Of a DNA stretch of 64,000 nt, positions 1-59,390 are shown piece by piece. A program made the translations under genes and the position numbers. The stretch lies in contig LN717261.1 in assembly GCA_001244265.2 (NCBI GenBank), positions 806,001-870,000 on the forward strand, read 5' to 3'. Source of the DNA: Microbotryum violaceum. Taxonomy: Eukaryota. Each line of letters begins with the position of its first letter. Within the stretch, counting starts at the first letter, position 1. A model generated the notes under the pieces. The model worked only from the letters and a program-made list of their open reading frames with translations, did no database searches and was not told the DNA's origin.

Positions 1-80
1 CGATTGACCTTTAGCGACCCACTATCTCACAATAGGTCATCTATCGACGCCACGTAACTAGAGACGCTCCTACAACAACA
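1..80 (+). mobile_element. 3' end of a Ty1/Copia LTR, same family as the element at 45026-49899
   Basis: 1-80 is the reverse complement of 45026-45105 with 2 mismatches and ends in ...acaaca. The rest of the element lies left of the window. Confidence 0.95.
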
Positions 81-3000
81 GCAAGACCCGATTGTCGCGA
101 AAGTAGGTGTTGTGAGCGTCGGTAGGCCATCCCGAATTGCCTTCGACTAGCCGGTCGTCAATCGTTTCCGAGAGCCTCGCTTTCATCTGAGGAGTCTGGA
201 TGCCAAGTTGTTAGAAGTGGGGTCTGAGAGCCTAACTCATTGCTATTAGTCTTGGTTAATACTTTATTCTGCGCGCGCACCTATCTTTGTCTTTGCGTCT
301 TTTTTCCTTCTGGGTTCCTTCTCCACGCTATTCTCATCATCTCACTCGTGTATCTCGGAGCTGAGTCGTGGAGTACCTCTTAGTCCTTGTTGCAACACAA
401 ATGACGTCTCAGAGTTGGTTAACAAATTGGAGGTGTTCTTCGACTTCGACCGCGACCCATCGTTCCTGGGTTGCTTCCGAGGGTCTGGATTGTGTATTTG
501 CTCGGCAAGTGGCTGCCCTTGGCGCTGTCTCGGTATTTCGATGTATGCGAGGCAACCGGCATTGGCAACAGCTTCAATAGCTGACATCAACGTGTCGGGC
601 AGGGCTCCATTACGCTTAATGTGGCCCACTCTTGGTGCGTATCTCGAGATTGATCGAGTGCTGTCGAATACAGGGCAAATCTCAGAGGTGGACGGCCGAT
701 GACGAGGGTCCTGCGGAAATGCGGTCATTTGTCCCATGCGCAGCTCGGCCGCCGATGCTTGTGGAGCGGCTTTACGCAATTGTTGCAGCTCTTCCAGATG
801 TTGCGGGGACGGACGCGACACCGGAGGCGGAGGATGCAAATGATACCCTGAATGCCAGATATATATTTCCCCCGGGCATTCCTCACGCTGCCCTCGGGCA
901 ATCGTAGCGGAGCACAGGATGTGCCTCATCGGTCCGTTACAGCTTGTGATTGGACACGGCGGTAACTCGTCTGAAGGCCTCTCAACGTTTGGAGCGAGGT
1001 GCTTGCGGGTTGCAGCCTTCTTTGCAGCCTTCTTGGGGCGTCCTGTGACGAGCTGTGGAGTCTCCTCCTGAAACAACTTCGACCTACTCGCTGTCGACAG
1101 CAATGTGTGAGGTCGACGCTTGCCAGGGCATGATTGATCACAACAGACGAACACGCCCATGCAACGTCTTTTGCTGTACTTGCTGTACTCGACGTTTGCA
1201 TCCAAACGCGGGCCTTTCCATCGCCCTTTTGAATCGGTTCGAGATGATGACGCCGAGAAAGCCCACATGTGTGACAAGCCACCGCCCGAGCCTGGATCCA
1301 TACAAACAATGAGGACGTCGCCCCAAGTCCCGTTGGGCCACCAAGGATCAAGAACAATCTCTTGTGAGTATGCTTCGAGCATCAGGTCCGTCATTGTTGT
1401 CCTTCCTTCACTATATGTTGGTAGATTCGCATGATCTTCACTGTTGACGAGCTTGTCATCCGTTGAATCTGGTTCGGTGTTCGGACGTTGATTGCCGGAG
1501 ATCCTGTCGCTTGGAGATGCTTCACGCTTTTCCCTGACAAGCAAGTCGTGCTTGGAAGCAAAAGGTGCGCCACTTGGAACAGGGGCATCTACCCGGCCTT
1601 GAGGTTTTGTAGTGATATTTACGAATGGGAGTCGAGCCTTGATGTGCTCGTAGACCTGTGACGTTTGCAATCAAGAGTCAGCTCAGCGACTAAAGCTCAA
1701 CGACGTAGAATCCGTCAACTCATGAAGCTATGCGCACTCTCAAGGTAATGGCTGCTTCTGCTGGCAACGAGTCGATGTCGAGTACGAAGCCGGTCAACCC
1801 GAGAACCTGGTCCGAAGAGTCGGTCGCAGCAGTAAATGCTGCGAGTTGGTCTTACCGGCAGGAGGCAAGACATGGAGTCGAGTGAGTAGATGACGTAGCC
1901 GCGTCGTCGACCACCCAGTAGTCGAAGCAGGAGTCCTCTGTACAAAGGCACAGATAAGTCGCCGAATTAAACGGTTAGTAACTGGCTGAGTGGCCTGTCA
2001 ACATTGCTTGGGAACCGATCTAATCTTGTCTTGCATACCTTGGAGAGCCAGGCCAGTTAGCTCAGCAACCTCTTCCCAAATTTCTCGTAGATAGACGAAA
2101 CAATGTCCTGTTTCCGTGAAGTTGATGGGCACCAACAGCGTAAATATCATCGGCACGTTAGTCGCCAAGAGAGGTTTCAAGGACAACCTCAGAGTTGACC
2201 ATCAACACTAAGAAAGGAAAGCGGACAATATCAGTTTTCAGTGAAGCCGTTTGTTAAGCAGGCTAGGAGAGCGCATGTTGATGTAAAAGTGCACCACCTA
2301 TAGAGGTGGCAGCGGTAGGATGATACTCATGTCAGAACCGATCAGAACCGATAGTTGAGGAACAAGTGATCGAAGAAAAGATAAACCAGGGAGTCTGCTT
2401 TGCGAAGTCATAGGCCCACGCGCAAGACTATAATCCACTCAGACACTAAGTCTAATCCACTGCCTTAAAACCAATCGAGCCTCCGGGCGCGCGCCTCGCC
2501 TCGTGACCGATGGCCTACCATCTAGACAACACATGTGGCGTACCTTCAAGCTTAAGAGTCGTAGGTTGATGCTTGGGAAGAGTGGAGCTGTCCTTTGGAA
2601 TAGCCTTGGGTTGTGAAACGCTTAGACGGGAGAGGTTCGGAGCTAAGGCTGGTGAAAGCGAGCCGACTTGAAGGGTAGAAGCGGAATTCACACTCTCAAC
2701 ACTGCTTTGACTGCGCAGCGACGGCCAACCGGGATCGCTGTTCTGGGAGCACAGGAGAGGCATTGTTGAATTCTCTTGCTTGATGGTGTGGTGGAAGGGA
2801 GTGTCGTGGGCGAGCCGAGTGGAACAAGGTGAGTCATTGTCACAGTCGTCCTGATGATCGTTGTGCTTATCGTCCACATAATTGTCACAGTTCTCCTCGC
2901 AGTCCTCTGCGGACTTGATGCGATTAGGCAAGTCGCTTGTACGATCGGTGATAGGAAATTCTCCTGTTAGAGTCGGGGATTTCGATAGCCGCGGTGCGGA

Positions 3001-3258
3001 CACCGTGCAGGTCAATGCTTCAGCTTGAAGGTCGCCAGAATCGTCCTGAGGATGCGCTGAGTTTGCCGACTCGGGGACCGACTGGCCGTTTCCTTTCCTG
3101 ATTTGACGATTGATTACTACCGTTGATTGGCGTTTGATGCTTGGGACTTTGAATCTCGACTTGGGAGTCCGCCATTGGGGCCGGTCTCCAGCTCCAGAAC
3201 GAGTCCGAGTCCAGGGCCCGGCGTCACGGTCGGGAAGTTGGCGGTTCCGCAATCTCAT
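81..3258 (-). mobile_element. Multi-exon GCM-like zinc-domain protein, probable DNA transposase, interrupted by the Copia LTR
   Basis: ORF 342-1670 has KRRCMGVFVC..C...RP, CP...CNGPM.HI.C and IYIWHSGYHLHPPP, matching the GCM Cys/His pattern. My translation of ~250-81 reads GWPTDAHNTYFRDNRVL into the LTR, resembling a first catalytic-Asp strand. The S/P-rich ORF at 2515-3372 is the likely N-terminus. Confidence 0.6.
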
Positions 3259-3448
3259 TGATGAAATATTTGAGTCCGTGCCTCCTGGCACAAAGCTGGA
3301 GGTCGCAATTGGCTGGTTCGCAAAAGTCAAACAGTGCCACGGTGTTGACGTCGATGGGCGGTGTGGGGACAATTAGGTGAACAAATGTGAACAAAGGCTT
3401 CGAGCTGAGTGCGCCTCCTGTCGTTCCACATGTCACGTGCGCGCGCGG

Positions 3449-3705
3449 TCGTATCCTTACACATGTTGACACATGTAAGGATACGAGGGTGCGGTAAGGA
3501 CACAGAAATTTTGAATCACTACAAGTCTTGCAATACACATGCTATCGTGTAGTCCTTGCAGACACCATTCAGAAATAGTTATATGTTGATGTTACAATGC
3601 CAAGATGAACAGATTTGGTTGTGTATTGACCTTAACTCATGTGTAAGGATATATCCTTACATGTAGACAAGCCGCTTGCGCCCGACCTGACGTTCCTTAG
3701 AGGCT
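3449..3705. repeat. Palindromic subterminal motifs plus a 31-bp terminal-inverted-repeat (TIR)-like sequence
   Basis: 13-bp inverted arms at 3449-3461 and 3474-3486. Perfect 20-bp palindrome TGTAAGGATATATCCTTACA at 3642-3661. 3675-3705 matches the reverse complement of 16313-16343 at 30/31. Confidence 0.85.
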
Positions 3706-4052
3706 CAGCGCTCAGCCACTCAACGCCTCCCGAGGGTTGAACCACCCCAGAGTTGGAGGATTTTTTTTTCTCGCGGGTAGTCTCGTGTGATTTTTATTTT
3801 TTTCCCTGCGCGCGCGCGCGATTCTCGTGTCCACAAAGGCGCCTCATAAAAAGAATGGGGGGGGGGAGAGAAAAAAAAAAGAAAAAAAAGGGAGGGAAAC
3901 AAAAAAAAGGGGGGGGGGGAAGGAGAAGAGGGAGGGAAGAGAAAGAAAGAGAAGAAGAAAAAGAGGGAGCTCAAGGGGAAGGTGAAAAGGAGAAAGAGAG
4001 GAAGTGGTACGGAACAATTCATTTTGACGCCATACATCATATTACGCAGGTA

Positions 4053-7000
4053 TTATGAAGCTACAAAGTTGTGACACTTCTTTTGATGCCGAGCTCGGCC
4101 ATTCATCTCAGCCCTTGTCAGTCCTCTACAGAACCTTCGTGATTGTGGGTCGTTCGGATCCATCTCGTCTGTCAGCCCGAAAGGCTTCCCGCAGTCCAAG
4201 CACGCCCCGTCACACTCAGTCACCGATCCGTCATCGCTTAGTTTTGACCCCTTGCGTCGACAAGTAGTTTGACCACAGAATCGACGGTGCCTTGCCCCTT
4301 TTGTGGTACCCGCGCGCGTCAAAGCGCGGCTTGTGCCCAAGTCCGCGCTTGAACCAGCGTCGCTCGAGGCAGTTGCAACAAAGGGGCGAATGGATGACGT
4401 TGGAGGATCTGAGGCATCGACTTCTACCTCCATAAGCCTCCCCAAGACTGGCGGTTTGTGACCGAGTAATGGCTTAGCCGCTAGCATGCTAACATCACGA
4501 CCGCGGGAGGGGTTGGTAAGCAAAGCTTGAATCACTCTGACGTCGTTTCCACCCATGTTCATTGTGGCTTGAGCATTTGCCAGCGATGACCATCTCGATG
4601 CCCATGTATTGATGTGCTCTGGCATCTGTGTGATATTTGCGCTTCAGCTCAACATCACCATTCAGTGTGACACAGACGCGACATACTTTGTATACTCCGT
4701 TGGCATACTTGTTCCAAAGCTCGGTAATCTCCAATATCCGAGAATTTTGAGGAGCTCCCAGTCGTACCTTGCTTGAGAGATATCTGTATAGCGCTCGTTC
4801 GCTGGGTGTATGGACATGTAATACAGCGAATCGAGTACCCTGACGTTCCGCTAGCCAGTCGTGGCGAAGCTTGCGATCGGTTAGCAGCCGGCTTTGCATA
4901 TGCTGTATCGCCGACGTATTGATTTGCAGTAAGTTCCGTGGCGACCACTTGACGGGCTCCAAACGCAGAGTCCCGCGCTCGACGTGATAGGGCTCGATCA
5001 AAAAGCGCATTTGCGCTGTTGGCGACTGAACAGGTACGATGCCGAATGTTTCGGTGGATGGGGTGTAGAGCAGCGGGTTGACTATATCTGACACAGTGGT
5101 TGAGTGCCGTGGGAGAAATGCCGAGGTCTTGCGCCTTAGACGATGTAATTTCAGAGTGAGCCAGAGGTCCTAGTGCCCCACAAATGGTTTTCCGGTACGA
5201 TTGAACGTCCCAACCTGCGAATGCAAGGGATAGTGGGTGAGAAAGGTTGCCGCTTCTTCGAATCGCGATGGTGAAGTTGGACTGACCGTGAGATTGTGCA
5301 CTAGCACGTAGTCAGCCAAGCACGCATTGGCATGGCACGGAGAAACACCCGACATTGGAAACCGTTGGCGAAGGTTCCGGTGGATGCCTTCTTCGAGACT
5401 GTTGGTGCCGCGCTGGCAGGAATATAAACGGACACCGTCATCCGCCTTTCCATCGGGCCCTCCGCAAGGCCCAAGGTCGGTGTACAGCTCGATGCCAACT
5501 GGATCCGAGACTTGGCCTTTCCGAATCGCCTCAAGACATCTCTTCGCTGCCTTGTGCGCCGCTTCGTTGAAAAGTGGTTGCTTCGACTTCGCATCAACCG
5601 AGCTTCTCAAAGACCTCCCGGACCAAAGGCTCGAGAATGCCTGGCGGAGGGATCCATCGACGAACGCGTCTCCAAAGCTTCTTATTCCATACCGGCGAGC
5701 GGACCGCTTCTTCCCACGTCATTCCGAGTTTTGCTAGGCGAGCCTCCATCAGGAGTCGATCATCCGCATTCGGAATGAAAACCGCATCGGAGAAGGCGCG
5801 AGCAAAGGCTTGGCAGCACCATGTTTTTTGGACACATAGATCCGGTCAAAGAAATGCCAGAGATCGATTAGAATTTGCACAGCGGTATCGTCTGAGGAAG
5901 GGACTAGTGGAAGGGGATAGTTCGAGATACATACATCTGCTCCAGCCCCGGCGCCAGGACTGGGGCAAGTCTGTAGTAACTGACCTTTGATTGTTGCAGC
6001 CTTGCCCCAGATAGCTTTGCCAGCTGCTTCAGTCTTCTTGCAACGATCCAGTTGGAGGGCTTGTGCGATCTCTGCAGGCCCAACCATTTCACTGTCCTTA
6101 TCGTGATCGTCTATTTGTGCGTCCACATCATCTGTGCGATCGCTTTCGTTGGCGGTGGCAGAAACGGCAGCGTCGGAGGGCTTTTCTTGGATAAAAATCT
6201 CCGAGGCGTGATGCGAATCATGCGTAGCCGAAACGTTTGACGTCCACTGTGCTTCGGTCGGAACGGGCGCATCATCCAAGTCGACGACGAGAGCGCTAAG
6301 CTCGAGTACCAGAGAGAAGGAGTCTGCGGATTCTTGAACTGCGTTCGTGTCCTCGGCTGCCCGATGGTTTGAAGTCGCTTTCAAGTCGGCCAGGCTCTGT
6401 GGCGTGAAAGATCCGTTTTGATGAAAGTTGTACTCAGGAACCAGTGCGCCAGGGGTCAAGATCTGTGTGATGGCGATAATAGCGCGCGATTTGTCCCACT
6501 TGAAGCCATGGAAACTGGACGGTGGTTGGCAGGAAGAGTCAATTGATGAATCGACGGACTGGATTACACCGCGAGCGATCGGCCAGCCAGACTCGTACAT
6601 GACGGCGACTTGAGTGCCCACTCGTGGATTGGCGATCTTCGAAACAGGCCGCGAATGTGGCTCGGAAATCTTGTGGTAAAGACGCAGCGAAGCGTATGCG
6701 TCAAGCGCGGCATAGTCCACAAAGTGTTGGGGAAGCGACTCGTCGGCCCATTGCATAGATCGGCGGATGTTGTTATTCTTGGGTAAGTGTTTCAACAAGA
6801 AGCGTTCGCACAACCCGGCCAATGTCCGATGTCCGGGTCCTTTCTTCACTGAGTGACCTTGGCTGGCGGCGTGCTTAACCAACTCGAGACCGCCATGATG
6901 TCGAAGTGCTGGAGCGACGGCCACTGGATCCTCATCGGCTTCGTCCACGTTCCACATTTCCGCATGTGCGATGGCGTTGGCGATGCGTTTCAAGTCACCC

Positions 7001-9788
7001 GCTACGCCGACTCCGACCTTGACAATGTCGCTGCGCTGGAGGAATAGGACGAGCGGGTCGGGCAATCGGCCTTTGGCACATTTGCCGATGATTAAGGATA
7101 GCTGCCGCAAAGATGAAACAGAAAGTCAGTGAGAAAAAGAAATCCAGAGTCCGAAGCAGCAGATGACATACTTGTATCACATGAATGAAAAGTTCCCCCT
7201 CGAGTGATTCCCAGGCGAATTGCAACACATCGACCGCTATCCGAGGTGGCTGTTGGCGGGCTTGCTGACCCGCACCGGGGGGAGCGTTGCCCATTCTGCG
7301 TCGACACCGACCACTAGTTTCCCTTCTGGGGGGATGTTGTCCGCCATGACTTTCATCAGACGAGTCAAAGCGTACGGTGATTGCACCAAGGTCGGCGTTA
7401 TCCCCAGTGGCAACTTGAGAATGTCGTATTCAGAGGCAGAGTGCGACTGGACCCGTGGCGCGAGCGACGGAATCTTGCTCCTCAAGAAAGGGCCATCGGT
7501 GTCGGGTTGATCTGTGTAACAGATCGTGGGTGCCTCGTTACAATACAACTCTAGATGCTTGGTCATCGCTTCGAGCGAGGTCTCGAATGCCGAGTGGCCC
7601 TTTGTTGAGGTAAGCACGTGGGCGCGCACTTCGCCATATTCATTCCCGACCATGAGCAGTGCGATGAAGGGGGGAACCCCTTCAACCTTGGCAATCTGCT
7701 TCGGGACCGGCAACGATCGGGCTCGGGGCATTAGCTGCTTGCGCTACTAGCAAAGGGCAAGCACGGTTGGTGTTGTAAAGCTAACGTTACCTTGTAACTG
7801 TGATCGATGGTCATAATACTGCAGGGCTTTAGTGATTCAGCATGATTGAGAAGCGTTTCTTGTCTGAAAGACCAGCAGAACATGATCAGTAAACACGACA
7901 TCTACGTAACGTTACAGCCAACCAAGCACTCACTTTCTCATCACGGAATCATAGAACTCCTGAAGAACCTGAGAATTCGGTACGTGGCCGCAATTACCCG
8001 TCGGATCTTCCCAGTCTCCGAGAGCAGGATACAAGCTAGTTGATGGCAAGTCAGCCTCACGCGCCAAGATTGCCGATCGATAGTCCACCTCGAGTCGGTC
8101 ATGAGCGGCGCGATGTGCCGTGACCAATAGGTTCGCAAATTGCTTCGAACCCAATCCGAATTGGAAGGTTCCTCGCATGAGGTTCCAGACAACCGAGGTG
8201 ATTGCGCATCGATATGACAAGTGGAAAGGGAACATCGAATGAAGGGACGACGACAGTTGATCGAGCACCTCGGGCGACCAAGACCGGTATCGTTTATTGC
8301 ACTGCTTATTGTTACATCGATACGAGACCCCAATGAGGATCACCGAGTTGTTGAGATCGCATGCTCGACGAGGCCTGCCAAGAAAGCTGTCTCGTCGCAA
8401 TACGCCTTTCTTCAGAGTCGATTCAGTTTGCTGGCATTTGTCGCACACTAAGCCGGATCCTGCCGGCTGGTCTTCTGGTTGGCCTAATAACATGAGCGGG
8501 TCCAAATAAAAAAACGGCGGGTCGAAGATCTTGAGGTTCTGCCGGGCGCACCGGGTATCGTAAATCGACTCCAGATGGTTTTAGTCGGGAGCCAGCCATG
8601 CAGCATTTGGTGGAAGGGTTTGCTGGAACGATTCGCGCCGGACCCATTTGCGTGCTTGATCGTCTCCCGACGGGAACTGTAGAGGTCGGTCAACCAGGCC
8701 GGGTGTTCCCACCGACCTTGAGCTTTAATGGAACCACCGCCATCATCTTCCTCGTCGCCATCGAACGGATCACCGCCTCCCAACGCACAAAAGCGCATCA
8801 TCATCAGTGATAATTGGTTCGCGGGGAGGAGAGGTCCGTGGATGCGCAGTTTGAAGGTTTGTGATCGCGGGGTTTGCGCTTACTTCACTCATATTCGAAC
8901 GTGGATCCGAGCCAAAAGAGTCTGAATCGTCGGGCAATGCCAATCCGACCGACGTCGGAATCGAGCGCGACGTGGGGGTGGTCGAGACTGAGGCATCGGA
9001 TGCGGAAGGTATGGCAGACGAGCCATCTGGAAACGGAGTTTGGGGTGAAGTTGTTGCCGGTGCAAAGTTGAGAGTTGTTTGAGTCTAAGATTAGGAGCCA
9101 CAGACATGCATTAGTTTAGTCAGAAGGAATACGAGCGACGGGAATGTAGCCCGGCTCACAGTGTATACTTTTGCAGGGGGAAACTGTATGGGAAGATGCA
9201 GCACATTGCCTTTCTGACGTCAATGCCACTAACAGGTTTTGACACTCATGATCCCAATGATCTATTGCAAATCGGGCTTTCACAATTGACCTGCATCCGC
9301 TGACTCTGCTCGTCTAATATGAGTTGGCGTTGAGGCGCTCGCTCGGCCTCTAGCCTAGCTTTCTCCGCTTCCTTGAGTTGTCTTGCACGTTCATCATCAA
9401 GTTCTATTTCGGCAGCTTGCTGTGCTGCTCTCTCGGACTTGGCTATGGCCGCCTCTTCCTTCTCCTCCTCCGTCTTCCTCGGACGACCCTGAGGCCTGGT
9501 CGCTGCGGGCGCCGGGACTAAGCTACGGGGTCGACCTTGTGGCTTCTTGGTCGACTGATCAATTGCAGTCGATCCTGTATCCTGTCCATCAATATGTATT
9601 GAAAGCTCATCGAAGCGGCGCTTCGCGGCCTGAACTTGACTCGGGGTGTTCACGCTGTGTAGAGTGTTGACACAGGGGCCGATCTCGTTCTGGCATGCTG
9701 TCGATGCTGTCGTAGCCGAGGTGCCGACAACTTTGTCGTCCGCGTTATCGGCGCTTCGTTTTCGAAAGAAGCGTGACAGCAGTTGCAT
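4053..9788 (-). mobile_element. Dada-like DDE transposase with a DUF6729-like N-terminal region and an inserted DEDDy (WRN/DnaQ-like) 3'-5' exonuclease; frameshifted
   Basis: PRRACDLNNSVILIGVSYRC...FPFHLSYRCAIT (DUF6729-like). D1 in TIDHSYK (~7805), NEYGEVR, D2 in CYTDQ (~7510). Exonuclease motifs VGVDAEW, VGVAGDLKRI and YAALDAYAS. DxxH in IDLWHFF (~5860), SDPVG, E in RGTNSLEEGIH (~5390). GT-AG introns plus frame changes near 8550, 5810 and 5600. Confidence 0.8.
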
Positions 9789-11189
9789 CGTAGGATATGG
9801 CACGTTGCAGCATGAAGACAAGCGGTGGCCGCATGCGGCGCGCCTGATTGCGCCAACTCAAGTGCGCCTATGGGCCGCCGTTTGGGCAACAAATGGATTT
9901 GTGCGCCCGGGGCTACTTGCGCGTTACAATTCGTTTGTACGCGCGCCGAAAATCGTGCAATTGCGCGCCAAAGGGCCTTCATACGCGCGTCATTCACTCT
10001 TGGACGCACTTTTGGTCTCTAACACGCTCTTGAACCTGCGGACTTGCGCGCTTTCCAGGAAAAACATTTGTTTCTGGCCCCTATTGGCGGTCCACGCGCG
10101 TTTCGCTCACTGTTAGACTCGCTCGCCCCGCCGTATCCGCGCACGGGGCATTACACGCGCTACAGCGCGCTCATGCGCGCGCAACCTACTCAATCTACGC
10201 GCTTTTTGGTATTTTTCCAAAATAACCGAAAGATGATTTTGATATTTTCAATTTTCATAGCTAAATTCCGAGCCCCGCACTCCCCGCTCTTTACGATTTG
10301 CGCGCCTCGGAAGCTGCTTACGCGCGCTCGCAAACAGTTCTCACGCTCGCAGAATCGGATTCGGGATCGGTGCGCCGATTTCGAATGCAGATGCGCGCGA
10401 CCGGAAACACTCACACGCTCGCGGCGCTCTGATTCGCTCGCGGCTTTTTCTACTTGCGCGACAACCGACCCCGAGGAGGATTGCCTTTTCACTCCGCGGT
10501 GTGTATCTCATTTTCATGGCAGGGGCGTTCGCTCCGATTGCTAAGTCTTGATGTACTTGTAAATAGTGACATTGCTATGGTGTATTGGGTTGGTGTGGCT
10601 GTCGAAGCGTTCGAAGCTCAGGGCTGGGCATTCCGGCTCCAAAGTTGAGATCCAGAGAGCTAAGGGCTCGTTCCAGATAATTATTTGTCGGGGTGGGCCG
10701 ACAAATCCTGCACCGGTGCTCCCGGCCAAGAGTCTTGGTATGCAGCAGCAGAATCGTAAAATCGGCACTGGAAGAGTCTCTGCATCTGCTCCAGCTTGCA
10801 TTAGGAGGGCTCAAAGAGCTCCCAGCTTGCAACGTACCTGCACCCTTGGCGGGCAACTCCCTCTCCCAAGTCGGAATGATGCCATCTGCTTTTCTCATGA
10901 TAGCAGTTGAAGGCTGTTGAGTGAAACAGAGTCGTTATGAAAGCGGGGAATAACTGGACAAGGTTGACGTGGGGGCGGTGTGTGTGTGGAAGAAGGCGGC
11001 CGCGCGAGTCCGCGCGAGTATCGCGCGTGAGCTGGTGTGTCGCGCATGAACGAGGCTAGACGAGTCGCGGGCGCGCAAAAGCGTTCGGCGGGGCGGAAAG
11101 CGCCGGCCAAAGCGCGCGGCTGCCACGGCGAACGACATGCAGCCTCTTTGGCTTCGTTCCACAACGCTTGAGCCATACTTGAAAGCACG

Positions 11190-13164
11190 ATGAGTTCGGC
11201 AGCCAACACGACGACGACGAGCACGGCTGCCTCCAAGCGAAGACGTTCTCGCGCTTCCCACCCTTTGGGCGAGGGAGAGTCAAGTGTGAGTGCTACGACG
11301 ACGGGCAACGGTCGGGGAGGAGCCGGTGGGTCGGGTCGCTTGCTCGCTTGCTCGCTTGCACGTTTCCGCGGCGGCTCGTCGTTATTTCACGCCGGCAGCG
11401 GCGCGGTGGTGACGACTGCCACGCGTCACGGCTTGGGGGAATCACCGAGTCGGCGTGCTGATGATCTGTGGCTGGCCTTCGCGATCCTATGCACATACAG
11501 CGGGAAGCATCGGCCGAGTCGAACGACGAGACGGGTCAGTCCGGCCTGGACGAGGACGACAATGCGAGTCTGTCCGCGTTCGGAGCTATTACCAAGGCCG
11601 CGTCGTCGCTGCCGGCCTCGGGGCACACACCACTTTCGACGCGCGAGTCGTTTGAGGCGCCAGGGGTTCCCGGCGCGAGGGTCACGCGAAGGACCAACGG
11701 CACCCACACCGCATCGCCCCAGCTCAACAACACCTCAAAGACCATGGTTGAGGATCCCATCGACAGTGAAGGATCGGCAGGACGTAAGTTCCACGGGACG
11801 GCTCGGGTTTGAGCCGTTGCTTCTGCGGTCCGGTGTGATTGTCCCGAACGCTTTGGAGGCCGTCTCCTTTCCCATTCGTTGACGACTGGACGATGTGTGC
11901 TGTACATTATTGACCAACCCAACTGTCATCGGTTTGAATTGCCTTCTTGTCGCGCAGACGATGGTGATATTTCGTCCGCACCGACTGCTAACCCCGTGCG
12001 AAGCTCGGGACAGCACCACTTCTACCGCGCCCCGATCGTCTCGAAATTGCAGCAGCACACCTCGCATGCGTCGACCTCGACCGACTTAGCCCCTCCTTCA
12101 CCACCGAATGGCTCACCCCGACCTGTGCAACCCTCGCGTCACCCTGGGCATTCGGGGTCGAACGAGCCACCGACGTGGGCCGCGGCCCCACAAGGATTCC
12201 TGAGTACCATGAGCGCTCAAGACATCCAGGTTGGTCCGACGAATGTCTCAACACTGATTATAGCTCTAGGTGACTGATTTGGCTTTCAAACGCAACAGCA
12301 ACATATCCAAGCTGCGATCGACGGGCAGGATGGTCGCGCCTACTCGATCAATCCACCCCCTCAAGGCAGGCCAGTGCGCATCTACGCCGATGGTGTATAC
12401 GACCTTCTGCATTGTGAGTCGGGATCACAGTCTTCGCCACACTCGATTCGAGTAGCTCATGGTCGCGTTCAATGAATAGACGGGCACATGCTCCAACTGC
12501 GGCAGTGCAAGCTCGCTTTTCCTTCGGTCCATTTGCTCGTCGGTGTCTGCTCGGACGAGATGGTGCGCAAATACAAGGCTTCGCCGGTCCTTTCGTCGCA
12601 AGAGCGTTACGAGTCGGTGCGACATTGCAAGTGGGTTGACGAGGTCGTTGAGGACGCGCCGTGGGTCATCGACGAGGCGTTCATGAAGAAGCACGAGATC
12701 GACTTTGTCGCTCACGACGAGGAGCCCTACGTCTCGGCCGACTTTGATGACGTGTACGCTTTGGCCAAGTCCAAGGGTGCGTGCGGGATACCGATCGATC
12801 GTTAAAGACGAGGTCACTGATTCGTCACTCTTTTACGTGGATTTTGAGCACACAGGCCAATTCCTCCCCACTCGCCGAACAAACGGTGTCTCGACCTCCG
12901 AGTTGCTTCAACGAATCGTCGAAGGTTACAGAGAAGGGTCAGTCAGTATGAATTGGAATCTCTATGATGAAACATCTTCCTAACGTTCACATCCGTTCCC
13001 ACAGTGATTACGATGGGAAACTGCGCAAGATCGGTCACCCGGAGCTGTGCTCGAGGCAAGGTTCGGAAGCTGGAACGGGCGGGAGTCAAATTGCCGAGCA
13101 CCACTCTTTAAAGGAGGACGTGACGATGCTGAGCGTGCCTGAGAATGCCGTTTTGGCGGTCTGA
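11190..13164 (+). CDS. PCT1: Choline-phosphate cytidylyltransferase (multi-exon)
   Basis: RPVRIYADGVYD...GHMLQLRQCK, ERYESVRHCKWVDEVVEDAPW, DFVAHDEEPY, FLPTRRTNGVSTSELLQRIV. Start codon inferred. Confidence 0.93.
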
Positions 13165-13569
13165 ATTCGTTACTTTTGATGGGCTCGTCTGTTCTGTATT
13201 CTTTGCCTCGTTCAGCTTGGGAGAGTCGTGGTGGCTTTGACACCACCACTCTCACTCTGCTTGCGTCCGTTCTCATCTTCTGTCCTTTCTCGTTTGTTTC
13301 CCTCTGTAATTGTGCTTCTGTTTATACACTAGAGATGGGTAGTTGCAAAAAAGGGTCATTTTCTTCGGGAATTGATCATCGAGCGAAGGGCATCGATAGT
13401 GCTCAGTCATAACACGGGTCAGGTTCGAGGAGATGGCTCATTTCATTGGGAGTCAAGAAGTCCAGGGTTTTGTTGTATGATTGTATACTACATATGAAAA
13501 GGAGATCCTAGGTGAAAGCTGATAAGAGTCAAGGGCGGTCGGGGACTTTTTTGACAAACCCTGATCCGC

Positions 13570-16134
13570 TCAGCGAGAGTAAGGCTGTTAGAGAAGATCG
13601 CAACTTCATCAGTGTCCTGACTACTACGTTACTCCATGCATGAAAAATTGATGGTTGGCTCACGTGGAACCCAGCCCCACGACCGGCATTCCTTTGAGGA
13701 CCGGTGCCATCAGTTGCAGCGCCCGCTGCACCCGCTGGTCCACCCGCAACGCCACCTGCTTGATGTCCTCCACGACCGCCCTAAACATAGTAAACCCTCG
13801 CGAGTCAGTCATTTTTTCTTAGAGGAAAGTGTAGATGGCTCTGAAAACAGACCGAGAACGCTCCCCTTGCCCCGCCTCTCATCCCACCCCTATGACCACC
13901 CCCCATCGCAACCCCGCCCCGCATAGGCGCCGCGAAGCTCCCCTCCCCACCCTGTCCAACAGGCGCTACCCCAGCCCCCATGCCACCCATGCCCATGCCC
14001 ATTCCCCCCATCGCAGGCATCCCGCCCATCGCAGGCACGCCCATCATCCCTCCCATGCCACCCATTCCTCCCATCCCCATCGTAGGATCGAATCCTGCGC
14101 CCATTCCCGGCATCATCATAGGATTCCAGGCGCCCCAACCCATTTGAGCGAAGAATTTGGACATGGCGTTAGGGTCGAAAGGGGCGTTCATATTGGGCAT
14201 ACCACCGACGGCTCCGGTGACACCGCCTAGAGCAGGGTTAGCTCCAAAGCCACCACCGGCTCCTGCGGGGCCGCCCATTCCGCCGCCACCGACACCACCT
14301 CCCATGAGGTTCATCCCTCCTGCGTGGGCGGCGGGGTTGTGGTGCGCTGCGTTCATGTGGCGCGTGTCGATTCCATAGTCGGGTCGTCGTTGTTCGCCTT
14401 TGGTTTGAGCTCGTTTGACCTCCAACTAAGAAAAGAACAGTGCACCAAGATCAAGATCCTTCCTTGAATTCTCGCCCGAAGCAGAACTAACTGACCAAAT
14501 TGCCATCCATGTAATGCGGTTGACTGTTTAAGACCTTCTCCGTACTTTCGCCCGATTCAAAGTTCACGAAACCGAACCCACGATGACGACCGGTTTCTTT
14601 ATCCATCATCAAGGTCGCGTCGGTGACGACGCCGAAGGGTTGCCAGAACGTACGGAAGGACTCGGGGGTGCAGGTTTGCGGGAGCAGACGGATGAAGAGT
14701 TTGTCGGATTTGGGGTTCGACGAACGCGGGACGGCGCGTTTGGGATCGATCTGCGATACGTTTAAGAAAAGAAGAAGAGCGAGGCGCTCAGTGCGAGTTG
14801 ACCCGGATCGAGCGTGGAAAGGGGAGCGAGCGCGCACCGTCTTTCCGTCCAAATAATGTTCCCCGTGCGCCAAGACCTTGTCCACCGCGGCCGTGGTCTC
14901 GTACGTCAAAAAGGCGAACCCACGCGAACGACCGGTCTCTTGATCACGCATGATGTTGGATTGGATGATGGGGCCGAATTGGGAAAAATACGTGCGGAGG
15001 GATTCTGAGCACATCGTCGGGTCGGGGTGAGTTGAGGGGGTCATGGATGAGTCGAGGTTGTGGGTGGGGTGCAAGGGGCTCACCCTCGTTGGTATCCCAG
15101 TTCAAACCACCAATGAACATCTTGCTGTATTGCTCGAAGAAGAGTCATGGGACAAAGACGACGAATACATACCGCCGGAGATCAGATGAATACAGCAGAG
15201 TGATTCAATGCGTTTGCGTGGGACAAAAGAGGGAAGAAGAACGCGTGAAAATTGATCAGCAACAACAAAGAAAGACAGAGGCCCTACCCGATAGATATTG
15301 TTTATGTATCGAAGACAAGGGAAGCGAGGACCTAGCGAGTTCCGGCTATAGAGTAGAGTAGACGTAGTAGCGGAACAAGTGCTGGTAGGGCAGACAGCTC
15401 CCTGAGACGACGATGGATAGGGTAGGGTAGGGTAGGGCAGCGTAGATCGAGAGGTAGACGATACGCCAACAAGGCCTAGGGCCGCTCGCAGCTCGTATAG
15501 GATATCTCGGGAGCGACAGAGGACAAGACGGTGCAAGGGTAGGATCCGTATGGGGGCGTCTGACGAACGCGTCAAGGACCGCTCGTCGTTGTCCTTCGCC
15601 CGTCTCGGTAAGTTGTGTTAACATCAAGTAGCAATAGAGTGATCACTTACCCTTCTTCAGTCGGATCAGGTCGGTGGTTGTTGTGCTGCGCCTGCTGAGG
15701 CTGTCCCATCATGGGGTTGGACACGCCCGCCGGTGCTCGGTTCTGTGCTTGCATAGCCATGCCGATGCCGATCGCTTGACCATGTTGTTGAAGCGCTTGG
15801 ATCGGGCCTCCTGAAGAAGCCGAAAAAGTAGGTTTCATATCCGCCGACGCGGAGGGTGTAGATGCAGTTACACCACCGGTAGGGGCGGTGTTGGGGGCGG
15901 GGCCAGGCGAGGTGGTTGCGGTGGTTGAACCGACAAGGACGACGGGCTTGGAATCTGGTTGCTCGTTGTCACCGTAGAGGTCGTCGTAGAGGTCGTCGTA
16001 GCCTGTGGGAAGCGGGCGTGTGTGCATCAGCGTCGGTCGCCCACGAGCGAGCGTCTCGTCTGCCACTAGAGCCACTGCGCCGCGTTGAGAGATGATTGCA
16101 CAGGGTGCCCAAACGTACCTTCTTGAGCTGCCAT
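13570..16134 (-). CDS. Two-RRM RNA-binding protein, HRP1/Musashi/hnRNP A-D type, with a Gly/Met-rich tail
   Basis: KMFIGGLNWDT, RSRGFAFLTY, IDPKRAVPR, RHRGFGFVNF, VEVKRA, C-terminal PYSR*. ATG at 16134 (MAAQE). Confidence 0.9.
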
Positions 16135-16343
16135 GATGTAGGAATGTAGGAGTAGATGGTGAGCGAGAGAGTGGGAGGAGTGGCAGGGGTGCAAGCACGA
16201 GCGACGGGTCGGCTAATAATGCGCTAAAATCTCATTTCTTTAGTATTTAGTGGTATTCTTCAATTTAGCTTTTTCTGGTCAGCGGTCAGCCGGTCAGCCC
16301 TAATTACTGATTAGCCTCTAAGGAACGTCAGGTTGGGCGCAAG

Positions 16344-19200: not shown

Positions 19201-19400
19201 GGGAACGTCGACAACGCAGTGAAGGCCCGAAAGGGAACGTGCGTTGCGAGTACCGCCCGTGAGCTCGCGTGTGGGAAGCACAGCTATAGCATCCACTGGG
19301 GGAAACGTCGACAACGCAGTGAAGGCTCAAAGGGGAACGTGCGTTGCGAGTACCGCCCGTGAGCCCGCGTGTGTGGGAAACACAGCTATAGCATCCACGG
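19201..19400. repeat. Two ~100-bp tandem copies in an unclassified repeat-like region (~17.5-19.75 kb)
   Basis: Unit gggaacgtcgacaacgcagtgaaggc...cacagctatagcatccac starts at 19201 and 19301. tttgcgaggcgtagcgc occurs at ~19490 and ~19576. Confidence 0.85.
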
Positions 19401-19749
19401 GGGAGAGAGGGTCCGTGCGCGCGAGCCTGAATCGGCGCGTCGAATCCTTGCAGCAAAAGCCGAAAAGACCATCAAGGACGAAGGATCGCTTTGCGAGGCG
19501 TAGCGCGATGGAGATTCAGTAAGACAGAGCAACTAAGACAAAGACAGTAGCCCCAGCCTAGTAATATGGCATACCTTTGCGAGGCGTAGCGCAAGCGTCA
19601 AATAGAAGATTTGGGGGTTGGCAGTCTCGGCGAAGGTTATCCTATAGGGTGCTACGTGTTAGTTTGGGCGCGCCCAACTAGGACGCTCCTGAAAGACAGA
19701 CGATGGGTCGTACAGAGGTGAATCGCGGAGACCACTTGAACGAGTTTCT

Positions 19750-22700
19750 TTATTTATTTATTTAACTGGGGCACATAAATTGCAATCCTTCGGGTTGGCT
19801 GGGACCGCTACAAAAAGAGCTAAAGGAGGTTATAAAGCAACGACGGCAAGCAGTTGGGTGAAAGTCAAACCCCTGCGCGCAAAGAGCGCTGCGCAGATCA
19901 AAACCCGCCGAGCACCTAACGCGGACTCCAACGGGCGGTGAATACTGCCGCCGCTTCACGTCCCAAAAGCGGGAGCGAAGATACTCGAAAACCAGGCAAG
20001 AGCGCCTAGAGAAAGAAGGGGGAGAATATACAGAAAGTCACGACTGGAAACACGGAGAACCAGGAATACTAAGGCAGAAAGGAGGGGAACACACCCGAGG
20101 GGCCCAGGGAGGGGGTCGAAGCCGGAGGTAGAGGTCCCCAGGGACTAACAGGCCGCAGCCAAGCCCCAGCTACTCGTCACCCCGACAGCGCCTGATGTCC
20201 TCCCTTGGCTGAATCTCGAGTGCTGGCTGTTGAGCCGTCGGGGCCGAGAGAAAAGCGATCCAGTACAACGAAACGAGCCTCGCCTTGACGCGAGGATATT
20301 GACCAGAAACGAGCGACCTTCCTTCCCGAGCCATGCCGTAGATCTTGACCAACGCGAACGAACGAACCATTCAACGGAGTCCAACACACGGCTTAGTAGT
20401 AAAAGGAGAAGTGGCTGAAGCGTAGTCAACAACCGAGCAACAGGAACGAGAAGAGGAAGGGAAGGGAAAAAAGGGGGGAAAGGAGAGGGAAAAACTTCAC
20501 AAAGCCTGGAAAAACTTCACAAAGCCTCCAACGCAAAGACAATCGACCTGGCTTGCCGATCCATCCAAGAACAAAAAGCCGCTACTGCGCAAAGTGGAGA
20601 GAGAGAGGGAGAGGTGCGCAGCCTTCCATCGGTCATCACACCTCCCAATCTCGAGCCCCAGGCACAAAACCCGCTCGAGAGAGAAAATCTCGCTCGAACG
20701 CTCTGAGTGCACTGGGGAGCGAGGGAGGGGCCACGACCTTGTCCAGCTCGAACCGCTGATGAACGTGCCAGCGGAGCAGGTGCAGCCGCTGGAAGCCGAT
20801 CGCGCAGGCCAGCCGAACCCACATCCATCTCGAGGTCGTTCTCCCACGACCCCGCAAAAGGGGAGCCCCATAGTCAGCTGCTCCGGAGTGAACGTCGACG
20901 GATCGACGTCGGTATCCTCGATGCCCAGCTTGTCGAACAGAATGCGAAGCACCCCACCCCAGAAGCTGGTCGAGTACGCGCACTCGAAGAAGTAGTGCGA
21001 CACCGTCTCGATGACCGCTGCATCGTTGCCGCAGAACAGACACGTCGGCGAAGAGGCATGACCCTGAGTACGCTGCCTCTTGCGCGTCGGCGTCACGTCG
21101 TACATGAGCCGCCAGTGGGTGTCCTGCTCCACAGCAGACGCAAACCGGTCATGGAAGCCATCTCCAGAAGCGCTTCCTATCGCTCTGAGAAGTCCCATCA
21201 CGGAAACGCTTGACACGATCCTCCCTCCCTGGGAACCGAACCACGTTCACAAGCCGACGAAGCTTGCGAATAGTGAACGGTCGGGTGAGCCCAAAGAAGT
21301 TGAAGCACCGAGGACGGGGAGCCTCCTTGAGAGGTATCCGAGCAGGTCGCAACGCGGTCTTGGGCAGCAAGGCTTTCGCCTTGAGCAACTGACCACGCGC
21401 GACCACACGTGCTCGTGCTGTAGGGCGGGTTCCTTAGAGTGCTGCCAGAACCCGCGTCGATGACCAACCAGAGCCCAGCCCTTCCCTTCGTCCCTCCAGT
21501 ACAGGTCCGCGATCTGCGCAAACTTCGCCACTGCGTCCGCATCGTCATATGCGTGCTTGGCACCTTCAGCATAGAGTGAAGGGAGGCGAGGCGGAAGCGA
21601 GAGCAATTCGGGGAGCGTAAGGAGTTCGGACTTGATGGTTGGAACTGTGACCCTGGCAGCTGCAACGACTGCCCCCAGCGCGTCGAGTCGCGATACAGCT
21701 TCTCGACCCGAGCCGTGCTGCTGAAGAACCCCCACGGACTGAAATCGCGGGTCGCAGCGACGAGGGACCTCCAGCTCTCGCGAGCTAGGGGCGCCCAGAT
21801 CGCCTCATTCGAGCCCGCCACAGCATCCCAAAATCGAAGCGCCACCGAATGAACGATGTCGCCGATTGAAATCAAGCCCAAGCCACCGTCCTCCCGAGCC
21901 TGGAACACGAAATCGCGAGCGACGGCATTTCGCCCTGCTCCTCCCCAAACAAAATCCGTAAGTGCTGTCTCCGCCGCCTTAATGAACCATTGAGGCGGTA
22001 TGTCGAAGGACAGCACGTGGAGGACCGTCGAGATGATGTGAGCGTTGGCATAGAAGACCTTCCCACTCGGCGAAAGTGTCCGGTCTCCAGCGGCGCGGGT
22101 CTTGGCCTTGATCCTGTCAAGAACATGGGTCCAAAACAGTTTCGAGTCACCGTGGTAAAAGAAGGAATAGCCGCACCACTTGAAGCTACCCCCCTCCTGC
22201 ACCGTTGGCAGCGCCTGCGCAGTCTCGTCCCGAAGCCAGTTCGGTCCGAGTGGTAGCACCAGCGTCTTGTCCGTGTTGGTCTTCCCGTTGGTTGCCTCGT
22301 ACCACGTCTGCGACAGTGTTTGCAGCTTCGACAATGCCGCCGGTGACTCCACCACCACCACAGCATTGTCGGCAAACACCAGATGCGTAAGCTGCGCACG
22401 CGGCCCCCCTGGCCACACCTTCTGCAGGCCGAGCGCGATCCCGTGCCAAACGAGGGTGTCGAGGAAGGGCTGGAACGTGATGTTCCAAACCGGGCACGAG
22501 AGGGGATCCCGCTGACCGAGACCACACAGCAACCGCACCAAGTCCGTGGGGAACCCATTGATGAGGTAGCGCACCCCCAGAGTCTCGGGATCGTACAAAG
22601 CGCGCAGCAGGGAAATGAAACGCTCACCAAAGCCAAAGGCCTCGAAGACGTCAAAGATCCATGCGTGATCGACCCGATCGTACGCGCTCTGCTGATCCAA

Positions 22701-45025: not shown

Positions 45026-49899
<4,874 letters not shown>

Positions 49900-59098: not shown

Positions 59099-59365
59099 TC
59101 AATGTGACCGTGCACCAGTCCGCCCGCCATGGCTCCCAATGTGTGGTAGGGTAGAACCACCGCCGGTACGACTCGGGTGCACGGTCACATTGAAGTTTGC
59201 CTTGCGGCAGTGACAGACGCTACCAAATTGGAAAACAAAAGAAAGTTTGGTTGAACTGAGAATTGAACTCAGGTCCACTCTATTAATCAGATTTGCTCTG
59301 ACCGCTGAGTTACTCAAACCGCGGAAATAGATGAATAGGACGGTGCACCCGAGTCATACCGGCGG
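59099..59365. mobile_element. MITE-like nested inverted repeats
   Basis: 59160-59186 and 59339-59365 are inverted (25/27). 59099-59116 and 59176-59193 form a perfect 18-bp inverted pair. The interior is AT-rich. Confidence 0.7.
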
Positions 59366-59390
59366 GGTCGTGGGAGAACGACACTTCAGT

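What the first reader, a model, noticed from the sequence alone, without database searches (positions are those of the whole stretch)
81..3705. Candidate GCM-domain DNA transposon with a putative binding-site array at its end
Seen: a fungal ORF with the GCM-type Cys/His layout, a following TDAHNTYF...VL segment, four TGTAAGGATA motifs arranged as two palindromes upstream, and a 31-bp sequence that recurs inverted at 16313. Known: GCM is best known from animal transcription factors and belongs to the WRKY-GCM1 fold, which is linked to Mutator-like transposases. Inference: this is a poorly characterised GCM-DDE transposon family, and TGTAAGGATA is its transposase-binding site.
Basis: partly seen in the sequence, partly recalled or inferred. 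Interest (0 to 1): 0.78.

Follow-up and report, generated by a model that had tools for sequence, protein, structure and literature searches.

The report
Broken GCM-domain Mutator transposon copy
This is a dead, truncated copy of a known but little-studied fungal jumping gene (the MuDRF branch of Mutator transposons, whose enzyme carries a GCM-type zinc DNA-binding domain), cut off by a Copia retrotransposon; the repeated TGTAAGGATA motif beside it is real, but its role is unproven.

Summary
The minus-strand ORF 342-1670 belongs to a multicopy Microbotryum element with at least 13 paralogous proteins in M. silenes-dioicae and M. saponariae. Several of those copies are interrupted by Copia.

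- **GCM domain:** a family profile led by the window segment hits mouse GCM1 (1ODH) at E=1.2e-17. An AlphaFold model of window 729-1397 has 1ODH as its only significant Foldseek match.
- **DDE domain:** TDAHNTYF is the first catalytic Asp motif. In full-length paralogs D, D and E are invariant or nearly so. The modelled fold best matches the IS256-family transposase ISCth4.
- **Family:** this architecture was already published as "MuDRF" (Cantu et al. 2011, PMC3164196).
- **State of the window copy:** it is dead. It has a 1-bp frameshift near 2185, and a Copia LTR at 81/82 cuts it off just after the first Asp.

The TGTAAGGATA array is non-random, but no tool could show that it lies inside the element or binds the transposase. 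The 31-bp inverted pair is real but cannot be this copy's two ends.

Verdict: a new member of a known kind, of modest interest.

The parts
1..81 (-). End of a Copia LTR that truncates the element. The rest of this Copia lies left of the window.
   Evidence: 97.5% identical in reverse orientation to 49514-49594 and 45026-45105. Those are the LTRs around the Copia ORF 45389-49516.
85..207 (-). Last surviving exon. It reads ...GWPTDAHNTYFRDN and holds the first catalytic Asp motif of the DDE domain. Homology stops at about 85, next to the LTR.
   Evidence: tblastn of P0006 residues 536-576, 92.7% identity. The Asp of 'TDA' is invariant in 63 sequences (D279 in P0012 numbering).
321..1664 (-). Main exon (ORF 342-1670). 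The true exon probably ends near 399 and is followed by an intron down to about 208. Those two coordinates are read from the translations and no tool tested them.
   Evidence: tblastn of P0006 residues 119-557, 89.5% identity; translations.
729..1397 (-). GCM-type two-zinc DNA-binding domain, with a lineage-specific Lys/Ala-rich insert of about 55 aa between the zinc-ligand blocks.
   Evidence: Profile A2 against PDB: 1odh_A at E=1.2e-17. AF2 model pLDDT 74.1. Foldseek: 1odh_A is the only hit at E<=0.001 (E=4.1e-5, prob 1.00, TMt 0.54). The insert is visible in the alignments.
1735..1938 (-). Exon matching P0006 residues 55-122.
   Evidence: 94.1% identity.
2040..2202 (-). First exon of the database gene models (MVNSEV...). 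The window copy has a 1-bp frameshift at about 2184-2187.
   Evidence: tblastn starts at residue 6 (2186-2040). MVNSEV sits in a different frame from SLKPLL....
2513..2563 (.). Stretch that also occurs beside a rearranged copy of the element elsewhere. It is the only evidence that the repeat extends upstream of 2202.
   Evidence: P0001 residues 292-308 match it at 17 of 17 on the + strand.
2515..3372 (-). 285-codon open frame. It may be an upstream exon of the transposase gene (inferred). No homologue was found.
   Evidence: 0 of 500 shuffles reach 285 stop-free codons, and its GC1/2/3 profile resembles the element's main exon. A GT donor at 2543 and a CTGAT...TAG acceptor at 2208 join it in frame to MVNSEV. 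Searches found no relatives.
3442..3493 (.). Imperfect palindrome holding two TGTAAGGATA half-sites (3452-3461 on -, 3474-3483 on +).
   Evidence: repeat I3: 25-nt arms, 80%.
3642..3661 (.). Perfect 20-bp palindrome TGTAAGGATA/TATCCTTACA.
3675..3705 (.). 31-mer repeated in inverted orientation at 16313-16343. Its affiliation is unknown.
   Evidence: The flanks on both sides are unrelated (sequence read).
16313..16343 (.). Inverted partner of the 31-mer. No TGTAAGGATA motif and no transposase homology lie next to it.

Best explanation
Window 82 to at least 2563, and possibly to about 3705, is the 5' part of a dead copy of a MuDRF-type element. MuDRF is a cut-and-paste DNA transposon of the Mutator (MuDR/MULE-IS256) superfamily. 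The host is the anther-smut fungus Microbotryum.

Intact relatives encode one protein of about 1500 aa (P0006, P0010) with these parts:
- an N-terminal region;
- a GCM-type two-zinc DNA-binding domain;
- an RNase-H-like DDE catalytic domain with a CxxH motif;
- a disordered linker;
- a C-terminal USP-like domain.

By analogy with other MULEs, the GCM domain would recognise sites in the element's ends. The DDE domain would excise the element and reinsert it, leaving 9-bp target duplications. That mechanism is inferred from the family and is not shown here.

The window copy cannot work. It has a 1-bp frameshift after codon 6 of the annotated gene. A Copia retrotransposon at 81/82 removes everything after the first catalytic Asp.

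The TGTAAGGATA palindromes sit 80-290 bp upstream of the long open frame 2515-3372. They are candidate subterminal or promoter sites of the element, but this link is inference only.
For: **Repeated element**
- Searches returned 5 and 8 paralogous proteins, at 67-94% identity to the window ORF, named as from M. silenes-dioicae and M. saponariae.
- Several of these proteins are fused to Copia domains at different positions (P0002, P0007, P0011, P0013).
- P0015 is an internal-deletion derivative.

**GCM domain**
- Profile A2, with the window segment as first row, hits 1odh_A at E=1.2e-17 over 139 residues. Profile A4 gives E=1.3e-19.
- 17 of 63 family members match Pfam GCM PF03615 at E<=0.1. Three are above the curated cut-off: P0033, P0050 and P0053.
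- For the AF2 model of the window segment, 1odh_A is the only Foldseek hit with E<=0.001.
- The protein atlas top cluster scores 0.96 and carries GCM in 12% of its members.

**DDE domain**
- D279, D350 and S352 are invariant, and G402, C403, H406 and E494 nearly so, in 63 sequences.
- The AF2 model of P0012 has pLDDT mostly above 90 (lowest 10-residue blocks 77-78) over residues 237-535.
- All 5 Foldseek hits at E<=0.001 are chains of the ISCth4 transposase. ISCth4 belongs to the IS256 family, which is described as similar to eukaryotic MULE transposases (PMC7780238, passage).

**Family size:** 201 representatives at E<=0.001.

**Published description:** a GCM domain plus a DDE transposase, named MuDRF, with 9-bp TSDs, found in Basidiomycota and Naegleria (PMC3164196, passages).

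**Truncation:**
Against: - Neither the window ORF nor any Microbotryum paralogue matches any Pfam family. None of the 63 family members matches a Pfam MULE or Mutator transposase model.
- Only about 40 residues of the DDE region survive in the window, so the DDE assignment rests on paralogues.
- Foldseek TM-scores are modest: TMt 0.54 for GCM and 0.34-0.39 for ISCth4.
- No terminal inverted repeat, no second end and no target-site duplication could be examined. Mobility and element boundaries are therefore not demonstrated for this family in Microbotryum.
- The frame 2515-3372 has no detectable relative. All database gene models that reach the N-terminus start at MVNSEV (P0007's starts differently). 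The element may therefore end well before the motif array.
Confidence: 0.88

Rival explanations
1. The TGTAAGGATA palindromes and the 31-mer are not part of the MuDRF element. They belong to host intergenic or promoter DNA, for example sites for a dimeric host transcription factor, or to an unrelated small repeat. The element would then end somewhere between 2563 and about 3400.
For: - No stored protein or other window sequence links 2600-3705 to the element.
- Nine database gene models start at MVNSEV (2202): P0003, P0006, P0008-P0011 and P0013-P0015.
- The 31-mer's partner at 16313 has no transposase homology and no TGTAAGGATA motif beside it.
- The 31-mer's partner at 16313 lies within about 100 bp above the top of a run of minus-strand open frames (15650-16231 down to the RRM-bearing frame 14490-15101).
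Against: - The 285-codon frame between the gene and the array is not reached by 0 of 500 shuffles. It has the element's flat GC1/2/3 profile rather than the GC3-rich host profile.
- It can be spliced in frame to the MVNSEV exon.
- The bin 2001-4000 has the highest TTG/TCG ratio in the window, 1.45, as expected for repeat-targeted C-to-T mutation. All of these points are weak.
Confidence: 0.45
2. The two 31-mers are the terminal inverted repeats of a separate 12.7-kb element lying between them (3675-16343). Alternatively, 16313 marks the end of another MuDRF-related or non-autonomous element.
For: - The pair is 30 of 31 identical, inverted, with sharp boundaries and unrelated flanks.
- The interval contains transposon-like ORFs with DUF6729 and a sub-threshold 3'-5' exonuclease match.
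Against: - No matching direct repeat is seen next to the arms. The bases left of 3675 and right of 16343 differ (read).
- The interval also holds an ordinary-looking RRM gene.
- There are only two copies in 64 kb.
Confidence: 0.2
3. The ORF is a domesticated GCM-type transcription factor gene of the fungus and not a transposon remnant.
For: - Stand-alone WRKY-GCM1 domains derived from MULE transposases are known in fungi (PMC1702500, passages).
- The 442-aa frame is intact.
Against: - There are many paralogues at 67-94% identity to the window ORF, each continuing into a DDE domain.
- The window copy itself continues into the first DDE motif and is then cut by Copia.
- It has a 5' frameshift.
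- It shows C-to-T type replacements relative to paralogues, for example R to W and R to C.
Confidence: 0.03

Closest known systems
MuDRF elements of the MuDR/Mutator superfamily (Repbase MuDRF-1_PSt and others; Cantu et al. 2011, PMC3164196)
   Same: A single protein combining a GCM DNA-binding domain with a DDE transposase. The branch is only remotely similar to other MuDR transposases and occurs in Basidiomycota, including Pucciniomycotina, the subphylum of Microbotryum (passages read). My results agree: GCM by profile and fold, and a DDE domain closest to IS256/Mutator.
   Different: - I could not compare sequences with the Repbase entries because they are not held here.
- The TIRs and 9-bp TSDs reported for MuDRF could not be checked.
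- The Microbotryum proteins have a ~55-aa insert inside the GCM domain, which explains the Pfam miss.
- They also carry a C-terminal USP-like domain that is not mentioned in the passages I read. Figure S2 of that paper is a PDF and was not visible.
Classical MULE transposases with WRKY-GCM1-superfamily zinc fingers (insert-containing and HxC families; Babu et al. 2006, PMC1702500)
   Same: An N-terminal WRKY-GCM1-fold DNA-binding domain sits ahead of a Mutator-type catalytic domain. Some carry C-terminal protease fusions, such as OTU in Medicago (passages).
   Different: Here the DNA-binding domain is of the GCM type proper, with the inserted second zinc site. That paper described the GCM1 family as exclusive to animals. 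The protease-like module is USP-type, not OTU.
Animal GCM transcription factors (mouse GCM1 DNA-binding domain, PDB 1ODH)
   Same: The domain matches by sequence profile (E=1.2e-17 and 1.3e-19) and by predicted fold. It shares the CxGVxxC...RP, CxxC...C and HxGxHxHxxPP blocks.
   Different: - It is attached to a transposase and is multicopy.
- The octamer ATGCGGGT, which I recall from memory as the animal GCM site, is absent from 1011-5761 and not enriched in the window (40 matches against 48.3 expected).
- The DNA target of the fungal domain is unknown.
IS256-family bacterial transposase ISCth4 (PDB 6XGX, 6XG8, 6XGW)
   Same: It is the best structural match to the catalytic domain model (E=5e-5 to 3e-4, prob 1.00). 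IS256 TIRs carry a subterminal TGTAAA motif (PMC7780238, passage), and the window motif starts TGTAAG. That resemblance is only a weak lead.
   Different: - ISCth4 is bacterial and moves by copy-out/paste-in.
- It has no GCM or USP domains.
- Sequence identity is 12-14%, and TMt is only 0.34-0.39.

Membership tests
GCM domain (Pfam PF03615; fold of PDB 1ODH) | Sequence match to the GCM family model or to a solved GCM domain | tested here: met
   The window ORF alone has no Pfam hit and no PDB phmmer hit. Family profiles led by the window segment hit 1odh_A at E=1.2e-17 and 1.3e-19. 17 of 63 relatives hit PF03615 at E<=0.1, and 3 of the 37 relatives scanned score above the cut-off.
GCM domain (Pfam PF03615; fold of PDB 1ODH) | Eight Cys/His zinc ligands in the GCM order | tested here: met
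   C79, C85, C90, C148, C153, C162, H186 and H188 of window segment 729-1397 are at least 90% conserved in 31 sequences. They align with the Cys/His blocks of 1ODH (alignment). Which residue binds which zinc was not modelled.
GCM domain (Pfam PF03615; fold of PDB 1ODH) | Predicted fold matches the solved GCM structure | tested here: met
   The AF2 model has pLDDT 74.1. In Foldseek against PDB, 1odh_A is the only hit at E<=0.001 (E=4.1e-5, prob 1.00, TMt 0.54). WRKY domains appear only as weak hits.
GCM domain (Pfam PF03615; fold of PDB 1ODH) | Sequence-specific DNA binding | not testable with these tools
   This needs EMSA, DAP-seq or similar.
Mutator superfamily / MuDRF | DDE catalytic triad on an RNase-H-like fold, with a C/DxxH motif after the second Asp | tested here: met
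   Met at family level. D279, D350 and E494, plus C403 and H406, are invariant or at least 90% conserved in 63 sequences. The beta/alpha core is modelled with pLDDT mostly above 90. The window copy keeps only the first Asp motif.
Mutator superfamily / MuDRF | The catalytic domain is closer to Mutator/IS256 than to other superfamilies | tested here: met
   In Foldseek, all 5 hits at E<=0.001 are ISCth4 (IS256 family). Hermes, P element and RAG1 follow at E>=6.9e-3. However, 0 of 63 members hit a Pfam MULE model. The sequence link to MuDR is reported to need four PSI-BLAST iterations (PMC3164196).
Mutator superfamily / MuDRF | GCM domain N-terminal to the DDE domain in one protein | tested here: met
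   The two domains are collinear in the paralogues and in the alignments of distant relatives.
Mutator superfamily / MuDRF | Terminal inverted repeats and 9-bp target-site duplications | not testable with these tools
   The other end lies beyond the Copia, outside the window. No fungal genome DNA collection was available. The 31-mer pair is not a valid TIR pair for this copy.
Mutator superfamily / MuDRF | Multiple dispersed copies | tested here: met
   13 paralogous proteins come from 10 named contig groups (C001, C003, C005, C006, C011, C017, C026, C076 and C051 of M. silenes-dioicae, and Chr5-2 of M. saponariae). Only one copy lies in the window.
USP (peptidase C19) domain, in full-length paralogues only | Profile match across the USP catalytic domain, with Cys-box and His-box motifs | tested here: met
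   Profile A4 hits USP18 (2.4e-8), USP8 (1e-7), and USP46, 54, 4, 12, 15 and 1 over about 240-280 positions. Pfam UCH matches 2 of 63 members. Atlas UCH clusters score 0.90-0.92. Catalytic activity was not tested. This part is absent from the window.

The most novel reading that the evidence does not exclude
The palindromic TGTAAGGATA half-sites form the subterminal recognition array of the GCM-type transposase. That would give the first DNA target for a non-animal GCM domain. MuDRF transposases would also be three-module enzymes (GCM, DDE, USP-like protease) whose conserved C-terminal USP domain has not been described. Together these would make the family a plausible source of the animal GCM transcription factors and a new case of a transposase fused to a ubiquitin-system enzyme.
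Probability: 0.25. Interest if true: 0.55.

Novelty: new member of a known kind. Interest (0 to 1): 0.3.

Why it matters
The family places a GCM domain, best known from animal glial and placental transcription factors, in a transposase. It therefore bears on how such factors arise from mobile elements.

That point was already made in 2011. The window adds only a decayed Microbotryum copy. The useful by-products are:
- a working profile of a family that Pfam does not recognise (201 representatives);
- the catalytic residues;
- evidence for a conserved USP-like C-terminal module;
- a concrete candidate binding motif that an EMSA could test.

Tried and rejected
**Family and structure searches**
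- Pfam on the window ORFs and on six Microbotryum paralogues found nothing meaningful. The best hits were 'Ustilago_mating', Ribonuc_L-PSP and Lsr2 at E=0.018-0.16, all below cut-off.
- phmmer of the window ORF and of P0006 against PDB gave only chance-level hits.

**The frame 2515-3372**
- BLASTP against P0045 found nothing.
- phmmer against all 159 stored proteins found nothing.
- tblastn of all 159 stored proteins against 2203-4050 found only the 17-aa P0001 match.

**RNA and DNA motif checks**
- Rfam at gathering thresholds and ARAGORN on the whole window gave 0 hits, so the 31-mer is not part of a known RNA gene.
- A degenerate core of the 31-mer gives 3 matches, and 2 of 100 shuffles do as well, so there is no larger family in the window.
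- TGTAAGGATA with 2 mismatches gives 31 matches against 23.9 expected. There is no second cluster.
- I checked by eye a Helitron-end reading of the 20-bp palindrome, using the CTRR end recalled from memory. No such end follows it.
- The region 3400-3760 folds better than shuffles as single-stranded DNA (z=-3.87). This only restates the palindromes.

- The genome-contig scan was not used because that collection holds only bacteria and archaea.
Full report
**What is in the sequence**

- On the minus strand there is a 442-aa open frame at 342-1670.
- The peptide ...GWPTDAHNTYFRDN is read from base 123 down to about 85.
- TGTAAGGATA occurs exactly four times in the 64-kb window, all within 3452-3661. 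The copies form an imperfect inverted repeat (3442-3493) and a perfect 20-bp palindrome (3642-3661).
- Allowing one mismatch gives 6 matches in the window against 0.94 expected, and 0 of 100 shuffles reach 6.
- The 31-mer 3675-3705 recurs inverted at 16313-16343 with 30 of 31 bases identical. These are the only two copies in the window.
- Window 1-81 is 97.5% identical, in reverse, to both LTRs (45026-45105 and 49514-49594) of an intact Copia element whose 1376-aa polyprotein carries gag, integrase and RVT_2.

**It is a repeated element of Microbotryum**

Homology searches with the ORF returned 5 and 8 proteins. The sources name all of them as Microbotryum silenes-dioicae or M. saponariae, at 67-94% identity to the window ORF.

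Two are full length (P0006, 1561 aa; P0010, 1513 aa). Others are fused by gene prediction to Copia gag, integrase or RT at different positions (P0002, P0007, P0011, P0013). P0015 is an internal-deletion derivative that joins the N-terminus to the C-terminal domain.

tblastn of P0006 maps the window copy as exons 2186-2040, 1938-1735, 1664-321 and 207-85. There is no other copy in the window. Homology ends at about 85, four bases from the Copia LTR.

The start MVNSEV (2202) is in a different frame from the following SLKPLL..., which indicates a 1-bp frameshift near 2185. The window copy is therefore a dead 5' fragment.

**The GCM domain is real**

Pfam and PDB sequence searches with the window ORF alone find nothing.

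A profile of eight Microbotryum copies (A1) searched against 1.84 billion representatives found 201 proteins at E<=0.001 and 61 at E<=1e-10. Most hits match the DDE part.

Alignment of their upstream regions shows a shared pattern: W.W...G...R.C.GV..C....C....RP ... C..C...L....C.A ... H.G.H.H..PP. The window residues C79, C85, C90, C148, C153, C162, H186 and H188 are at least 90% conserved among 31 sequences.

Further support:
- Three relatives exceed Pfam's GCM cut-off: P0033 at 31.6 bits, P0050 at 37.1 and P0053 at 25.7, against a cut-off of 25.
- 17 of 63 relatives match GCM at E<=0.1.
- The profile headed by the window segment hits mouse GCM1 (1odh_A) at E=1.2e-17. A second profile gives 1.3e-19.
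- An AlphaFold model of window 729-1397 (pLDDT 74.1, pTM 0.66) has a single significant Foldseek match in PDB: 1odh_A at E=4.1e-5, probability 1.00 and TMt 0.54.
- A language-model search put a Mucoromycota cluster with GCM in 12% of its members on top, at 0.96.

The Microbotryum lineage has a ~55-residue Lys/Ala-rich, low-confidence insert between the ligand blocks. This probably explains the Pfam miss.

**The DDE domain is Mutator/IS256-like**

In a 63-sequence alignment (A3), D279, D350 and S352 (P0012 numbering) are invariant. G402, C403, H406, W461, W464, W465 and E494 are at least 90% conserved.
- D350 lies in FVVDYSSAQ.
- C403 and H406 form a CxxH motif.
- E494 lies in TTNAVES.

The AlphaFold model of P0012 has pLDDT mostly above 90 over 237-535 (lowest blocks 77-78), with a beta-beta-alpha-beta-beta-beta-alpha...beta-alpha order.

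All 5 Foldseek hits at E<=0.001 are chains of the ISCth4 transposase. Hermes, P element and RAG1 follow at E>=6.9e-3. ISCth4 belongs to the IS256 family, whose transposases are described as similar to eukaryotic MULEs (PMC7780238, passages read).

Against this, TM-scores are low (0.34-0.39) and 0 of 63 members match a Pfam MULE model.

**It is a known family**

Cantu et al. 2011 (PMC3164196; passages found with 'GCM') describe 'MuDRF'. [quoted passage not shown]
- It is linked to MuDR only after four PSI-BLAST iterations.
- It is flanked by 9-bp target-site duplications.
- It occurs in Puccinia, Melampsora, Laccaria, Schizophyllum, Coprinopsis and Naegleria.

Their Figure S2 is a PDF and was not visible to me, and the Repbase sequences are not held here. 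Membership therefore rests on architecture and not on direct alignment.

Babu et al. 2006 (PMC1702500; passages) had described the GCM1 family as animal-only, while showing that MULEs carry other WRKY-GCM1 fingers.

A Microbotryum TE survey pools MuDR and MuLE elements under 'TIR' elements, about 0.42% of the genome (bioRxiv 10.1101/2022.08.03.502670; passages).

Full-text searches for 'MuDRF', 'GCM domain'+transposon+fungi and 'glial cells missing'+transposase found no further relevant paper in the held library.

**The motif array and the 31-mer**

I could not test whether TGTAAGGATA is the transposase's site. No fungal genome DNA was available, so I could not compare element ends, TIRs or target duplications.

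Indirect points for the array lying inside the element:
- A 17-aa stretch of the scrambled gene model P0001 matches window 2513-2563 perfectly, so the repeat extends at least 360 bp upstream of the annotated start.
- The frame 2515-3372 is open for 285 codons, which 0 of 500 shuffles reach (maximum 233).
- That frame has the flat GC1/2/3 profile of the element's main exon (0.56/0.51/0.56 against 0.56/0.51/0.54), not the GC3-rich profile of host genes at about 0.69.
- A GTACGC donor at 2543, together with a CTGAT branch, a pyrimidine tract and a TAG acceptor at 2208, joins it in frame to MVNSEV.
- The bin 2001-4000 has the highest TTG+CAA over TCG+CGA ratio in the window, 1.45.

Points against:
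- The frame has no detectable relative.
- Nine database models start at MVNSEV.

The 31-mer pair is certainly homologous, but it cannot be this copy's two ends. The gene lies left of 3675, not between the arms. The partner at 16313 has unrelated flanks, no TGTAAGGATA motif and no transposase homology.

The octamer I recall as the animal GCM site is absent from the array region.

**Other findings**

Full-length paralogues and many distant relatives carry a C-terminal USP-type domain. This module lies outside the window.
- Profile A4 hits USP18 (2.4e-8), USP8 (1e-7), and USP46, 54, 4, 12, 15 and 1.
- The consensus is NSCxLD...CxxxxC...YxxVGR...H.T...YxYD.
- 58 of the 159 stored proteins match the P0006 C-terminal segment.

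**Verdict**

This is a decayed Microbotryum member of the MuDRF branch of Mutator transposons. The binding-site claim remains an untested hypothesis. The 31-bp repeat is unexplained.

Noticed in passing
P0006 residues ~1095-1561 and P0010 (paralogues; not in the window): The full-length MuDRF-type proteins end in a USP-type (peptidase C19) domain with Cys-box and His-box-like motifs. Profile A4 hits USP18, USP8, USP46, USP54 and others. The passages of the 2011 MuDRF description that I read do not mention this domain.
   Followed up: partly
window 2515-3372 (-): A 285-codon open frame with no detectable relatives. It can be spliced in frame (donor 2543, acceptor 2208) to the transposase's annotated first exon, so it may be an unannotated upstream exon.
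   Followed up: partly
window 45026-49691: An apparently intact Copia element. It has a 1376-aa uninterrupted polyprotein ORF (45389-49516, -), and the ~80-bp stretches at 45026-45105 and 49514-49594 each match window 1-81 at 97.5% (the two were not compared with each other). It is 98.8% identical in protein to the Copia embedded in P0011, which suggests recent activity.
   Followed up: partly
window 5752-8580 (-): ORFs with DUF6729 (40 bits, above cut-off) and a sub-threshold 3'-5' exonuclease match lie on the same strand, just upstream of the element. They may belong to another mobile element. No paper in the library mentions DUF6729.
   Followed up: no
window 20500-26117 (-) and 59331-61893 (+); 19749-20500 vs 61893-62643: Two non-LTR retrotransposon copies carry RVT_1 and zf-RVT, and the first also carries an endonuclease domain. 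They share a 752-bp flank at 98.8% identity.
   Followed up: no
window 28499-29041 (+) and 43765-44475 (-): A fragment with a weak KDZ (Kyakuja-Dileera-Zisupton) transposase match (21.6 bits, below cut-off) and an ORF with DUF6570 (27.3 bits). The window is a mosaic of mobile elements around a few host-like genes: RRM at 14490-15101, PCI at 37080-38018 and PAP1 at 39738-40850.
   Followed up: no
window 19201-19403: A tandem duplication of about 100 bp (two copies, 91-93% identical) of unknown meaning.
   Followed up: no
window 3760-4010: A long purine-rich, low-complexity tract (runs of G and A) lies directly right of the 31-mer. A 30-bp piece resembles tracts at 20443-20472 and 61921-61950, next to the non-LTR elements.
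   Followed up: no
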